Virus record (IMG/VR): IMGVR_UViG_2671180921_000025
Location: 1 to 17,056 of that record
Length of the DNA: 17,056 nucleotides
Direction: 5' to 3' (one strand)
DNA from: a virus
Taxonomy: Duplodnaviria > Heunggongvirae > Uroviricota > Caudoviricetes
Every line of letters begins with the position of its first letter. Within the stretch, counting starts at the first letter, position 1. Position numbers: made by a program. Below, piece by piece: positions 6,001 to 9,000 of this stretch.

Positions 6001-9000
6001 TGAAGTCTTTTGATGTGCGATGTTCCAGAGTATGTAAAGGCGTATATACCATCACCATTAAATGTGCGAACTGATACATCTACAAATACCAAGTCTTCAG
6101 GGTCTATTGTGCCTTTCATACTGTCGCCGTGGGCGTTTATTGCTTTGATTGCTGATGCTGGTCTGCCGCCAAAAACTCTTGATGCGTATCCTGGTTCTAT
6201 CGCTATAGATCTGACAATGTCAGGAAAATCAGAGTTATAACTACCAGGTCCGCAACTATATCTGATGTCTAAAACATCCACGACATACGAATCAGTAACC
6301 CAATCTTCAGAAATGTTACGTATTTGGTGTGAGTCTGCAGAGGTCACGATTTCCATTGGACCAACACCCGATGCGAGCCATTCCGGGTTAACGCCCAAAA
6401 CTTTTGCTATTTCGACTGTTTTTCTGGAACCGTTGGCTTTGTTAAGTAGTTGATTAACACTGGACTGAGCCATACCCACTTCTTTGGCCAGCCTACCTTG
6501 CGTAAATTTTGCGTTGCGCATAGCTAAATCAAGTCGTTCTGAAAATGTCATTGCGATTTTCCTCCCCTCTCTATCTTGGCTAGTTTATCGGCTTTCCGAT
6601 AAATATTCTAGGTTTAACGTTGAATATCGCTTTTCCTGTTGTTATTATGCGTTCAATAGGAGATGCGATTATGAAACATAAAGCCATAGAGAAAGCTATT
6701 GAGATTCTTGGAAGTCAGCAAGCCTTAGCCAAGCGATGCGGAAAGGCCCAGTCAACAGTCTGCGATTGGTTGAACTGCAAGAACAAGATTTCACCAGAAT
6801 TTGTGCCGTTATTGGTTGCAGCTGTCGACGGAAAGATCCAAGCGTATGAATTTCGTCCAGACCTACCAGAGCTTTTTCCACATCCAAGCTTAGCGCGTAC
6901 GGGGGAGGTGAAGGGCTTGTATGTCCCAGAATTACGTTCAGACAGAGATGTCATCTAGGTACTGCCAGGCAGACGAAGAGTGGATTCAGCAGCAGTTACA
7001 GGGGCTGCCTCCGTCACTGAGACGGAAGGTCGCCCTGAAATATGCGGAGGTATACGAAATCACTTTTGACGCTGAGCCTGTTTCATTCCGCAAGGAGAAC
7101 AGAGCAAGGCACGAAGCAAACACAAGGCTCCGCTTGTTTGTGAGAAATCAGGGCAGAGCTTTACAGGGGTATACAACTCAGCCGCCCCTGGCAGGAACGC
7201 AATCGCGCTCCTGATTGGTACCGGGCTTAAAGGTGTCCGGTGGCTGAATCCCAAATCTCATTGCATTTGTGTACTAGCTAAGGAGTACATGCAAAATTCA
7301 GTGAGAGGAGGGGAGGGGGAGGAGTGCTCGTGTGTTAGTGCGAAGCACTGGAACAGGCTTTTCCAACAGACGGGTACATAGGTTAGGTAGATCTCGATCT
7401 AAAGGGGGATACCCCTGAAAAAACGGCCGTACCATAAAGCTAGTACAAGATGGATAAAAAGTATGAGTGAAGACCTGAAGCAAAATTTAATCGCTCTCCT
7501 GGAAGAGCAATTCATTCGCTCCGATGACAAAGTCGTTTTCGATTATGTGATGCAGAAAAAAATCAAGTCTCAGGGATACCACCTGCAACGCAATTTCAGC
7601 ATCAGCATTAGCGGTGGTCGTAAAGGGTTTATTGATTGCCTGGTTACATCATCAGACGGCCAGCAGTGTGCCATTGAGGTCGATAAGAAGTCTCCCCGCA
7701 ACCGTTCGTTGATGAAGCTGGCTCAGCTACCTGAGGGGATGTCAGGCTTTGTCCTGCTCAGGGATGGTAAGCACCCTCTTCGATATAGCGAGAACGGAAT
7801 TGACGTTATTCGTGCGACGAAATTTAAGTGAGTTGATTCGGAAAGGGGCTGGCAGCCTTTGGGGAGACCACCAGCCATGTGAGGAGGAATCCATGAAAAC
7901 CACATCACAAAATTATTATCTCATCACTGCGGGGACAGCACAATGCAGCTGACAATCACGCCGAATTTTGCACAGGAACGAGCGTTAAACATGTTGCGCC
8001 GTGACTGGAAGGCAAACGACACCTTCATGGTGTACTCGCCAACCGGTAGCGGTAAAACGGGTTTGGCCGCCTTCATCGTTGCCGGGTTTGTCAGCCGTGG
8101 TATGCGCGTCCTGTTCTGTGCACCGTACACCATCCTGATCGGTCAGACGGCTAATCGGTTCGTGGAGTATGGATTACCGGGGGATGAAATCGGTTATATC
8201 TGGGCGGACCACCCGAACTACGATCCGGACCGGAAAATTCAGATTGCCAGCGCCGACACGCTTATTCGTCGTGTTTTTCCTGAAAATATTGATCTGCTGA
8301 TTATCGACGAAGCACACCTGCGTAAAAAACGCATCCTGAAGGATATCGAACGTCTGCGCGGTAAAGGCGTAAAGGTGATTGGCCTGTCGGGTACTCCGTT
8401 TTCCCCGTTCCTGGGCAAATACTATGACCGACTGATTAAGCCGACCACCATCGGCGAGTTAATCCAGCGTGGCGATCTGAGTAAATACGAATTTTACGCG
8501 CCAACTAAGCCGGATCTGAAAGGTGTTAAAACCACATCTTCGCTTGAGTACGGCCGCGATTACAACGAAACACAGCTGGCTGAAATCATGTGCGGCTCTA
8601 CGCTGGTGGGCGACATCGTACAGAACTGGCTGGAGAATGGTCGGGATCTACCTACCATCGCTTTCTGCGTCAACGTAGCCCACGCCAATTACCTGACAAT
8701 CCAGTTTAACCTCGCAGGTGTTAACGCTGAGGTAATGACCGCAGACACTCCGGTAGATGAGCGCCAGACCATCATTCACCGCTTTGAAACTGGTGCAACG
8801 AAAATCATCGTTAGTGTGGGCGTTCTGGTGGCCGGCTTTGATAGTGACGTTCGTTGCATCATCTACGCCAGGCCAACAAAAAGCGAAATTCGCTGGTTGC
8901 AGGCACTCGGGCGTGGGCTGCGCACCGCACCGGGTAAAGAGTCCTGCCTTATCTTCGATCACAGCGGCACCGTGCACCGTTTGGGTTATCCGGATTCAAT

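What the first reader, a model, noticed from the sequence alone, without database searches (positions are those of the whole stretch)
7215..7462. Highly structured 248-bp intergenic region: candidate origin or small RNA locus
Between the cII-position ORF and the next gene there is a 10-bp inverted repeat pair (TGTACTAGCT at 7270-7279 and AGCTAGTACA at 7438-7447) bracketing a purine/G-rich run (GAGAGGAGGGGAGGGGGAGGAG, about 7303-7324). Inside are a GGGG-ATA-CCCC hairpin (7404-7415) and a palindrome TAGATCTCGATCTA (7388-7401) carrying two GATC sites. No ORF with a ribosome-binding site is present.
Basis: seen in the sequence. Interest (0 to 1): 0.5.

Follow-up and report, generated by a model that had tools for sequence, protein, structure and literature searches.

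The report
Structured G-rich element upstream of helicase
This 248-base gap is one copy of a widely conserved, folded, G-rich non-coding element that always lies between a small unknown gene and the helicase-primase genes of a family of temperate gut-bacterial viruses (Shiga-toxin phages included), and it is probably the place where these viruses start copying their DNA.

Summary
The window is an E. coli Stx2f prophage. The gap (7215-7462) holds an unannotated element of about 230 nt that I found in 107 other loci (79 distinct copies; Escherichia, Salmonella Fels-1, Klebsiella, Yersinia). A diverged form occurs in 98 phage records, mostly Stx2a 'Eru1' phages. It always lies on the same strand between a 97-aa gene (phrog_852) and an SF2 helicase plus primase. 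Base-pair covariation and a 36:3 excess of G.U over A.C show that the + strand folds. Inside are a discontinuous G tract, a three-way junction and an invariant 16-mer with a GATC. No conserved ORF, own promoter, terminator, iteron array or Rfam match exists. My best reading (about 0.4) is a transcription-primed, R-loop origin resembling mitochondrial CSB II or ColE1 RNA II. The main rival (about 0.3) is a cis-acting regulatory leader RNA. Function is inferred, not shown.

The parts
7217..7244 (+). Hairpin H0. The stem is ACCGGGC 7220-7226 with GTCCGGT 7235-7241. The loop TTAAAGGT 7227-7234 is invariant. H0 starts 5 nt after the stop codon of the 97-aa gene.
   Evidence: There are 44 distinct versions, with 86% of cells paired. 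Cells with a change on both sides number 82 against 28 in shuffles (0/500), and the covariation score is 0.59 against at most 0.20 when slid. G.U:A.C is 36:3. It is the only match in the window, E = 2.9e-8. Of 114 such hairpins in 1.07 Mb of related loci, 113 lie 60-260 nt upstream of the core on its strand, and 23 loci have two in tandem.
7249..7265 (+). Pyrimidine-rich 5' strands TCCC 7249-7252, TCTCA 7256-7260 and TTGCA 7261-7265. They are predicted to pair with TGCAA 7290-7294, TGAGA 7302-7306 and the first G run.
   Evidence: The minimum-free-energy fold predicts these pairs. TTGCA/TGCAA becomes TTGCG/CGCAA in L014, and C-rich/G-run pairings recur in other families (read). This part was not formally counted.
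7270..7289 (+). Local hairpin HL, TGTACT-N8-AGTACA. Its 5' arm, 7270-7279, is also the left arm of the long-range helix.
   Evidence: The hairpin is present in all GTAC-type families. Variants give U.G on the + strand (AGTGCG, TAGTGCG) and C-G swaps.
7303..7324 (+). Purine run containing a discontinuous G tract, GGGG-A-GGGGG at 7310-7319.
   Evidence: All 79 distinct copies have G4-8, a 1-3 nt A/T spacer (5 nt in one copy), then G4-8, with length heterogeneity. The stretch 7302-7327 is the most RNA:DNA-hybrid-favouring 25-nt window on either strand of the window.
7324..7377 (+). Three-way junction. Stem S1 is 7324-7330 with 7371-7377. Stem S2 is 7331-7336 with 7365-7370. Hairpin Ha is GTGC 7338-7341 with GCAC 7345-7348. 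Hairpin Hb is GGAA 7350-7353 with TTCC 7361-7364.
   Evidence: In 18 distinct sequences 92.8% of cells are paired. Cells with a change on both sides number 24 against 9.0 in shuffles (0/500), and the score is 0.218 against at most 0.073 when slid. On the model-fitted alignment of 42 distinct sequences the counts are 61 against 25.7. S1 occurs as GUGCCCG/CGGGUAC, GGAGUUG/CAACUCC and UUGAUCU/AGAUCAA. Ha occurs as GUGC/GCAC and GCGC/GCGC.
7380..7395 (+). Invariant 16-mer AGGTTAGGTAGATCTC, containing GATC at 7390-7393.
   Evidence: It is invariant or near-invariant in all families and also in Eru1 phage PA2, where it reads ...AGGTTAGGTAGATCAC.
7403..7416 (+).
   Evidence: A hairpin of different sequence lies here in many families, for example GGGCA/TGCCC, TAAGGG/CCCTTA and GGGCG/CGCCC. 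It is absent in family E.
7418..7423 (+). A6 run.
   Evidence: An A5-A8 run is conserved at this position in most families.
7428..7447 (+). CGTACC-N8-AGTACA. The stretch 7438-7447 is the right arm of the long-range closing helix.
   Evidence: Long-range helices of 10-19 bp with quite different sequences bracket the core in other families. Twelve of 18 representatives have at least 10 bp, against 14% of shuffles. Five of 18 have at least 13 bp, against 0.9%. Helices are longer under + strand pairing rules (10.8 against 9.5 bp).
6921..7214 (+). The 97-aa gene (phrog_852) in the 'cII position'. It is always linked to the element.
   Evidence: It lies upstream on the same strand in 102 of 102 loci that reach that far. 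It matches phrog_852 with unknown function and has no Pfam, NCBIfam or PDB relative. The predicted structure is helical with low confidence.
7943..10571 (+). SF2 helicase (7943-9601) and zinc-ribbon/Toprim primase (9603-10571). They are always linked to the element.
   Evidence: The helicase lies downstream on the same strand in 105 of 105 loci. Family matches are Pfam ResIII/DEAD/Helicase_C and Toprim_3/Zn_Ribbon_Prim and NCBIfam RadD at 1.4e-27, with weaker Hef, RecG and PriA matches.

Best explanation
SHOWN. Window 7217-7447 is one copy of an undescribed cis element that belongs to the helicase-primase replication module of temperate enterobacterial phages. The module consists of the 97-aa phrog_852 gene, the element, an SF2 helicase and a primase. 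The + strand of the element folds. That strand is either the early-right transcript or the displaced non-template DNA strand, which have the same sequence. Inside that helix are a discontinuous G tract, a three-way junction, an invariant 16-mer with a GATC, a GC hairpin and an A run. INFERRED. The element is the module's origin of replication and is activated by transcription. Rightward transcription from the early promoter passes through the G tract, where G-rich RNA on a C-rich template leaves a stable RNA:DNA hybrid (R-loop), possibly helped by G-quadruplex formation. The folded flanks keep neighbouring RNA off the template and set the limits of the hybrid. The phage's RadD/PriA-like SF2 helicase, its primase and probably the 97-aa protein then act on this branched structure to start DNA synthesis.
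For: Conservation: the core profile gives one hit per locus in 108 sequences. These make 79 distinct copies in 26 clusters, and a diverged copy occurs in 98 records of Eru1-type phages. Linkage: the 97-aa gene is upstream in 102/102 loci and the helicase downstream in 105/105, on the same strand, while the gene between them (p122 or a NUMOD4 gene) comes and goes. Structure and strand: H0, the junction, the long-range helix, and the fold z = -4.0 on + against -1.7 on -. G tract: it is universal and varies in length. It is the most hybrid-favouring site in the window and lies on the non-template strand of the operon. Its form G4-8 N1-3 G4-8 parallels mitochondrial CSB II (G5AG7 to G6AG9). CSB II forms a hybrid G-quadruplex/R-loop with the transcript and supplies replication primers (PMC3488243, PMC5027508). 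The helicase is of the branched-DNA kind (RadD, RecG, PriA), not a ring helicase. No iteron array or AT-rich stretch exists elsewhere in 6500-12400. In Pseudoalteromonas phage HS1 a RepL replication/maintenance gene occupies the same slot before a 56%-identical helicase, and that phage lacks both the element and the 97-aa gene.
Against: No experiment bears on it, so origin activity, the R-loop and the transcript ends are all inferred. A plain R-loop site needs neither a covarying hairpin with an invariant loop nor a closing helix, and those features fit a regulatory RNA equally well. There is no AT-rich unwinding element. Families E and G4 lack hairpin Ha, and in family E the two S1 strands do not match, so part of the fold is dispensable. 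Shuffle z-scores do not separate the strands in most families. The hybrid-stability profile uses nearest-neighbour values recalled from memory and largely restates G richness. Linkage to replication genes would also be expected of a leader that regulates them.
Confidence: 0.4

Rival explanations
1. A cis-acting regulatory leader RNA. The folded transcript controls expression of the replication genes downstream. It could modify RNA polymerase as HK022 put RNA does, serve as the target of an RNA-binding protein such as the adjacent arginine-rich 97-aa protein, or direct processing or stability.
For: The + strand covaries, and H0 has an invariant 8-nt loop, a typical protein or RNA recognition feature. 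The element lies inside the early-right operon with no promoter or terminator of its own. It is always upstream of the helicase. The 97-aa protein has the basic stretch RKENRARHEANTRLRLFVRNQGR, conserved in 31 homologues. Phages of this module type are reported to lack N (PMC8044961).
Against: The distance from the core centre to the helicase gene ranges from 145 to 794 nt, and the next gene differs between families. Sequestration of a ribosome-binding site is therefore unlikely. No strong terminator-like site lies on the + strand between the element and the end of Q (7400-12258). No second copy of H0 or the core exists in the leftward operon or anywhere else in the window, unlike put or nut. 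Length heterogeneity of the G tract without compensating changes is odd for a tightly folded regulatory RNA.
Confidence: 0.3
2. A double-stranded DNA origin or operator. On this reading the palindromic GTAC sites and the flanking inverted repeats are binding sites for a dimeric phage protein, as with iterons flanking the melting region in SaPI or lambda origins.
For: TGTACT-N8-AGTACA is a perfect palindrome, and GTAC-N10-GTAC occurs twice against 0.08 expected. The two sites are 158 bp apart. The element has an invariant GATC and an A run, and it lies next to the replication genes.
Against: L004 has the 97-aa protein at 98% identity and the helicase at 94% identity to the window, yet carries a completely different flank family. 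The variable C-terminal tail of the helicase does not track flank type. p122 is absent from families with GTAC flanks. No tandem repeats or arrays of three or more repeats exist. Flank variants keep pairing through G.U on the + strand, which would break a symmetric protein site.
Confidence: 0.1
3. An independent small-RNA gene, on either strand, that acts in trans.
For: The region is structured, conserved and non-coding. Prophages of pathogenic E. coli are known to encode regulatory small RNAs (general knowledge).
Against: No promoter-like site lies within or next to 7215-7462. The only terminator-like hit nearby, on the - strand at 7512-7489, lies in the p122 gene and is weak. The - strand folds no better than shuffles (z = -1.7). 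No Rfam match exists.
Confidence: 0.05
4. A small protein gene, either 7289-7381 (30 aa) or 7332-7418 (28 aa).
For: Both ORFs exist and follow Shine-Dalgarno-like sequences.
Against: The first ORF has a stop codon in KY171-type loci and no start in Klebsiella loci. The second is frame-shifted by a 1-nt insertion in families B and D and has a stop in Yersinia loci. Variable columns show no third-position bias: counts at codon positions 1, 2 and 3 are 2/5/6, 2/5/0 and 9/9/9 in three families. The two changes in Ha are complementary and both alter the amino acid.
Confidence: 0.02

Closest known systems
Mitochondrial CSB II / light-strand-promoter-primed origin OriH
   Same: Both have a discontinuous G tract on the non-template strand. 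The phage has G4-8 N1-3 G4-8 and CSB II has G5AG7 to G6AG9, and both vary in length. Both tracts lie in a transcript that runs toward or through a replication region. [quoted passage not shown]
   Different: The phage element is bacterial and embedded in a larger folded domain (H0, closing helix, junction). No U or T tract follows the G tract. R-loop formation, termination and priming are untested here. The partner proteins, an SF2 helicase and a Toprim primase, are unrelated.
ColE1 RNA II preprimer origin
   Same: Both would be long, structured transcripts whose folding decides whether a G-rich segment stays hybridised to the template to prime DNA synthesis. Both lie upstream of the start of DNA synthesis and lack iterons (established knowledge of ColE1).
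   Different: There is no sequence similarity and no Rfam match. No antisense RNA I-like gene is evident. ColE1 uses host RNase H and Pol I, whereas this module encodes its own helicase and primase.
HK022 put RNA (cis-acting antiterminator)
   Same: Both are folded nascent RNAs inside the early operon of a lambdoid phage that lacks N-type antitermination, and both act without their own promoter (PMC9378689).
   Different: put is about 70 nt with two stem-loops and occurs twice, as putL and putR, just downstream of PL and PR. This element is about 230 nt, occurs once, lies two genes into the right operon, and has no copy in the left operon.
Lambda ori and SaPI ori (iteron origins)
   Same: All lie next to or within the replication gene cluster. 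The SaPI origin has repeats flanking a central region (established knowledge).
   Different: The element has no repeated iterons and no AT-rich centre, and it lies outside any initiator gene. Its flanks behave as paired strands, not as protein sites.
Single-strand initiation signals and primosome assembly sites (phiX174 n' site, G4 oric)
   Same: Both are conserved hairpins on one DNA strand that are recognised by a PriA-type SF2 helicase or by a primase. Ha contains GCGAAGC, which I recall as a very stable DNA mini-hairpin sequence.
   Different: Those sites work as single-stranded DNA in ssDNA phages and plasmids. Here RNA and DNA cannot be told apart from sequence, and the element is larger and G-rich.

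Membership tests
Any Rfam 15 RNA family | Match to a curated covariance model at its gathering score | tested here: not met
   The only hits in the window are two tRNAs. In 7150-7520 at E <= 10 there are only chance-level hits at 13-15 bits. Nothing matches at the element in six other loci.
Lambda-type iteron origin | Three or more direct repeats (iterons) of an initiator-binding sequence | tested here: not met
   Only two-copy short repeats were found. Tandem Repeats Finder found nothing in the window or in L037.
Lambda-type iteron origin | AT-rich unwinding region next to the iterons, inside or beside an O-like initiator gene | tested here: not met
   GC content is 0.41-0.54 across 7200-7500 and the only A/T feature is an A6 run. 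The module has no O/P-like genes.
HK022 put RNA | Two copies, one downstream of each early promoter (putL and putR) | tested here: not met
   There is a single copy of H0 and of the core in the 17-kb window, which includes the leftward operon.
HK022 put RNA | An RNA of about 70 nt with two stem-loops that binds the RNA polymerase beta' zinc-binding domain | not testable with these tools
   Size and architecture differ: about 230 nt, closed by a long-range helix. Binding cannot be tested. I had no put sequence to compare.
Lambda N / nut antitermination | A boxB hairpin with a GNRA-like pentaloop in both early operons, plus an N protein | tested here: not met
   H0 has an 8-nt loop (UUAAAGGU) and occurs only in the right operon. 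The 97-aa protein has no detectable relative of known function.
Transcription-primed (R-loop) origin of the CSB II / ColE1 kind | G-rich tract on the non-template strand of a transcribed region | tested here: met
   The tract is present in all 79 distinct copies. It is the most hybrid-favouring window on either strand. All genes from cro to Q, and the element, are on the + strand.
Transcription-primed (R-loop) origin of the CSB II / ColE1 kind | A persistent RNA:DNA hybrid forms, and DNA synthesis starts from the processed RNA | not testable with these tools
   This needs hybrid mapping, RNA-DNA junction mapping and replication assays.
Stand-alone bacterial small RNA gene | Own promoter and intrinsic terminator bounding a short transcript | tested here: not met
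   The consensus scans found none at the element. These scans are crude, so this is weak negative evidence.
Protein-coding gene (small ORF) | An open frame kept across relatives with mostly synonymous change | tested here: not met
   Frames are broken in several families and there is no codon-position bias.
Invertible DNA switch or miniature transposable element bounded by inverted repeats | Found in both orientations or at many sites, with a recombinase or transposase nearby | tested here: not met
   The orientation relative to the helicase is the same in 105/105 loci, with one copy per locus. No recombinase gene is adjacent.

The most novel reading that the evidence does not exclude
The most novel reading is a bacterial-virus counterpart of the mitochondrial CSB II origin. 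In it, a defined RNA domain positions a discontinuous G tract so that early transcription leaves an R-loop or hybrid G-quadruplex. A phage-encoded PriA/RadD-like SF2 helicase, a primase and a small basic protein then assemble on that structure as a self-contained primosome. This would be the replication-initiation mechanism of the 'non-lambdoid' helicase-primase Shiga-toxin phages, for which the Eru papers I checked describe no origin.
Probability: 0.33. Interest if true: 0.8.

Novelty: new variant of a known kind. Interest (0 to 1): 0.62.

Why it matters
Phages with this helicase-primase module include the Stx2f phage of this window, Salmonella Fels-1 and the Eru1 Stx2a phages of highly virulent E. 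coli (PMC8044961). Toxin output depends on phage genome amplification after induction. The two Eru papers I checked contain no mention of an origin of replication or iterons. This element is the only large non-coding stretch in the module and is its best-conserved part at the nucleotide level. It therefore gives a concrete, mutable target for finding how these phages start replication. If the R-loop reading is right, it adds a well-defined bacterial example of G-tract-dependent, transcription-primed initiation. If the rival is right, it is a new cis-regulatory RNA class with a clear protein-partner candidate. In either case it should be annotated: nearly all matching records list no feature there, and two annotate a protein-coding ORF across it (KPP5665-2, phi191).

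Tried and rejected
1. Iteron reading. The family-specific words in the flanks (GTAC; TCTGGATG/TAGACGTC; GGCTA), and an apparent 8-nt periodicity in Yersinia-type loci, first looked like initiator-binding repeats. I dropped this for three reasons. Tandem Repeats Finder found nothing. The words turned out to be arms of hairpins and of the long-range helix. Flank type does not track any module protein.
2. The C-terminal tail of the helicase as a specificity determinant. The last 50 aa differ between the window and L004 (27/50 identical). The same tails occur with different flank types, so I rejected this.
3. Small ORFs. Rejected.
4. A nut-like or put-like second copy in the leftward operon. None was found.
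5. RNAalifold on a plain MAFFT alignment of all families gave almost nothing (-3.3 kcal/mol), because the flanks are misaligned between families. Per-helix, anchor-based tests were needed.
6. Swapping S1 3' strands between families was inconclusive, because G-rich upstream sequence pairs with almost anything. The column-based count was more informative.
7. Shuffle z-scores for 18 representatives do not discriminate the strands. The strand call rests on G.U against A.C counts.
8. The 97-aa protein. The AlphaFold model had low confidence (pLDDT 61), so I did not run a fold search. The profile search against PDB sequences, NCBIfam and Pfam gave nothing usable.
9. Literature. No paper holds the invariant 16-mer, and no paper describes an origin for Eru-type phages or Fels-1.
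Full report
OBSERVATION. The 10-bp inverted repeat is at 7270-7279 and 7438-7447. The purine run is at 7303-7324. GGGGG-ATA-CCCC is at 7404-7415. The palindrome TAGATCTCGATCTA, with two GATC sites, is at 7388-7401. The features exceed chance. GTAC-N10-GTAC occurs only at the two flanks of the region, against 0.08 expected for the whole 17-kb window. GGGGAGGGGG is the only G>=4 N1-3 G>=4 site on either strand. The + strand folds to -83.8 kcal/mol (z = -4.0, 0 of 200 shuffles as good), against z = -1.7 for the - strand. The statement that no ORF with a ribosome-binding site is present is wrong as written. ATG 7289-7381 follows AAGGAG, and GTG 7332-7418 follows GGAGGAG. Neither ORF survives comparison with relatives (see below).

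CONTEXT. The window is 100% identical over this region to Stx2f prophages of E. coli. The gene order on the + strand is cro-like gene, 97-aa gene (6921-7214, phrog_852, unknown function), the gap, a 122-aa gene (7463-7831, phrog_1347), SF2 helicase (7943-9601), zinc-ribbon/Toprim primase (9603-10571), a 285-aa gene, an antiterminator, then stx2f. The helicase's best NCBIfam matches are RadD (1.4e-27), followed by Hef, RecG and PriA. It is therefore a branched-DNA helicase and not a ring-shaped replicative one. This is the 'Eru'-type, non-O/P replication module described for Shiga-toxin phages (PMC8044961). The terms 'origin of replication' and 'iteron' are absent from both Eru papers.

CONSERVATION. 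The gap is unannotated in the 58 E. coli genomes that carry it. It is 86% identical in Salmonella phage Fels-1 and 81-82% identical in two Klebsiella phages, although the neighbouring proteins are only 65-89% identical. Pattern scans of genome and viral contig collections, filtered with a profile of the core, gave 108 sequences with exactly one hit each. These comprise 103 full elements, 79 distinct, in 26 clusters. A diverged copy lies at the same position in the Eru1 phage PA2 (profile E = 1.4e-9). There the 97-aa gene (52% identity), p122 (40%), helicase (66%) and primase (57%) are all homologous, and that version occurs in 98 phage records, mostly Stx2a-converting phages. Linkage is complete wherever the contig reaches far enough. 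The 97-aa gene is upstream in 102/102 loci and the helicase downstream in 105/105, always on the element's strand. The gene between element and helicase is optional. p122 is present in 56 loci and absent in 51, and in one family a NUMOD4-domain gene replaces it.

ANATOMY. The parts shared by all families are as follows. Hairpin H0 (7220-7241) has an invariant loop TTAAAGGT. A discontinuous G tract follows, of the form G4-8, a spacer of 1-3 A/T, then G4-8. All 79 distinct copies have it, and run lengths vary between close relatives. Next come CTTTTCCA and the invariant 16-mer AGGTTAGGTAGATCTC (7380-7395). An A run follows, and complementary flanks bracket the whole.

EVIDENCE FOR FOLDING AND FOR THE STRAND.
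- H0. In 44 distinct versions, 86% of cells are paired. Cells with a change on both sides number 82 against 28 in shuffles (0/500). The covariation score is 0.59, against at most 0.20 when the 3' partners are slid. In the six inner pairs, G.U or U.G occurs 36 times and A.C or C.A three times. The - strand would therefore carry 36 mismatches, which identifies the + strand as the folding strand.
- H0 specificity. H0 occurs once in the window (E = 2.9e-8, next best E about 1). Of 114 hairpins of this type in 1.07 Mb of related loci, 113 lie 60-260 nt upstream of the core on its strand, and 23 loci have two in tandem.
- Core junction. Between the G tract and the 16-mer, families A-D form a long stem (S1 and S2) capped by two hairpins (Ha and Hb). 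In 18 distinct sequences 92.8% of cells are paired, with 24 double-change cells against 9.0 in shuffles (0/500) and a score of 0.218 against at most 0.073 when slid. S1 occurs as GUGCCCG/CGGGUAC, GGAGUUG/CAACUCC and UUGAUCU/AGAUCAA, with the series C-G, U.G, U-A among close relatives. Ha occurs as GUGC/GCAC and GCGC/GCGC.
- Covariance model. A model of this junction finds one hit in each of 53 loci, including the divergent E, G4, F and PA2 types. On the model-fitted alignment the counts remain above controls (61 against 25.7 double-change cells), although that alignment leans toward the structure.
- Long-range helix. Other families have 10-19 bp helices of unrelated sequence at the same place, for example UAUGUCUGGAUGU/ACGUCCAGAUGUA and a 19-bp helix in L053. 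Twelve of 18 representatives have at least 10 bp (14% of shuffles), and five have at least 13 bp (0.9%). The helices are longer under + strand pairing rules (10.8 against 9.5 bp).
- Alternative pairing. The left arm can instead form a local hairpin with 7284-7289, so alternative pairings are possible.
- Limits. Hairpin Ha is missing in families E and G4. In family E the S1 strands do not match. Shuffle z-scores do not separate the strands in most families.

WHAT THE ELEMENT IS NOT.
- Not a protein gene. The 30-aa ORF has a stop in KY171-type loci and no start in Klebsiella loci. The 28-aa ORF is frame-shifted in families B and D and stopped in Yersinia loci. Variable columns show no third-position bias.
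- Not a known RNA family.
- Not a separate small-RNA gene by the crude consensus scans, which found no promoter or terminator.
- Not an iteron origin, and no AT-rich stretch or repeat array lies elsewhere in the module either.
- Not a pair of protein-binding sites whose sequence co-evolves with a module protein. L004 has the 97-aa protein at 98% and the helicase at 94% identity to the window but carries a different flank family, and the variable helicase tail does not follow flank type.
- Not a nut-like or put-like element present in both early operons.
- Not evidently needed for read-through of intrinsic terminators, since no strong one lies between the element and the end of Q.

MECHANISM (INFERRED). 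I favour a transcription-primed origin, for five reasons.
- The G tract lies on the non-template strand of the early-right operon. It is the most RNA:DNA-hybrid-favouring 25-nt window on either strand of the window (ddG -13.1 kcal/mol against a mean of -0.2 and sd of 2.7). That calculation uses nearest-neighbour values recalled from memory.
- The form and length heterogeneity of the tract match mitochondrial CSB II (G5AG7 to G6AG9). CSB II forms a hybrid G-quadruplex/R-loop with the nascent RNA and supplies replication primers (PMC3488243, PMC4176368, PMC5027508).
- The module's helicase is of the kind that works on R-loops, D-loops and forks. The module encodes a primase but no ring helicase or O-like initiator.
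- The element is the only large non-coding stretch in the module.
- In Pseudoalteromonas phage HS1, a RepL replication/maintenance gene fills the slot before a 56%-identical helicase. The element and the 97-aa gene are absent there.
On this model the folded flanks, as in ColE1 RNA II, would decide where the transcript stays on the template. The same hairpins on the displaced DNA strand could act as a priming signal.

MAIN RIVAL. The main rival is a cis-acting regulatory RNA, perhaps bound by the arginine-rich 97-aa protein. It explains the invariant H0 loop better than the origin model does. It explains the G tract, the variable distance to the next gene (core centre to helicase 145-794 nt) and the single copy less well. 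I put the origin reading at about 0.4, the regulatory leader at about 0.3, a duplex-DNA origin or operator at about 0.1, and the rest lower.

COMPARISON AND NOVELTY. The element works most like CSB II or ColE1-type R-loop origins. Membership cannot be claimed because hybrid formation and priming are untested. It fails the tested defining features of lambda-type origins, put, nut, Rfam families, small-RNA genes and ORFs. I found no description of it in the literature library. I rate it a new variant of a known kind, meaning an undescribed conserved element whose probable mechanism has precedents. Interest is moderately high because it makes the unknown replication start of a medically important phage group directly testable.

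Noticed in passing
window 7881-7952: A 19-codon upstream ORF (ATG 7893, stop TGA 7950-7952, MKTTSQNYYLITAGTAQCS) follows a strong Shine-Dalgarno sequence GAGGAGG (7881-7887). It overlaps the helicase start codon (7943) in another frame. The same arrangement is present in Fels-1 and in the p122-less families. It looks like translational coupling or a leader peptide for the helicase.
   Followed up: partly
window 7847-7876: A second conserved non-coding stretch lies between p122 and the helicase. It can form a long imperfect hairpin, GGCTGGCAGCC...GGCCACCAGCC, that is kept in Fels-1 and in families lacking p122. The window 7844-7869 is among the next most hybrid-favouring G-rich windows.
   Followed up: no
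window 7463-7831; L137, L129, L061, L004: The 122-aa gene (phrog_1347) is optional, present in 56 loci and absent in 51. Loci without it keep a short remnant...TTCCTGGAAGAG..., that matches the start of the gene. One family has a NUMOD4-domain (homing-endonuclease-like) gene in its place.
   Followed up: partly
L005 2623-3120 (Klebsiella phage KPP5665-2): The record annotates a 165-aa 'helicase protein GP40' whose 5' part runs through the conserved core of the element into the p122 homologue. This is probably an over-extended ORF call.
   Followed up: no
window 9440-9601 (helicase C-terminus): The last ~50 residues of the helicase are hypervariable and are swapped between otherwise near-identical helicases (27/50 identical against 46-50/50 elsewhere). 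The tail variants are listed. They do not correlate with element family.
   Followed up: yes
L061, L119, L075 (family E): The 5' strand of stem S1 is of the GGAGUUG type but the 3' strand is of the GGGUAC type, so S1 cannot form. A downstream CUCCCCUCC, complementary to the G tract, is present only in this family. The family may be a recombinant that uses a different pairing.
   Followed up: partly
L007 and L037 (Yersinia-type loci), about 60 nt left of the G tract: The left flank reads as seven successive 8-nt words resembling YTAGRTGT. Tandem Repeats Finder does not report them. They are unexplained and may be chance or degenerate repeats.
   Followed up: partly
L155 2496-2948 (Pseudoalteromonas phage HS1): A RepL replication/maintenance gene lies directly before a helicase (56% identity) and primase (37%) homologous to those of the window. 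The element and the 97-aa gene are absent.
   Followed up: partly
L053 4239-4357 and 8201-8433: There are two matches to the Rfam small-RNA family STnc100 in a related viral contig, far from the element.
   Followed up: no
window 13781-15016 and 15530-15680: The window carries stx2f A and B genes. Two tRNA genes lie downstream, annotated as Thr and Gly in RefSeq.
   Followed up: no
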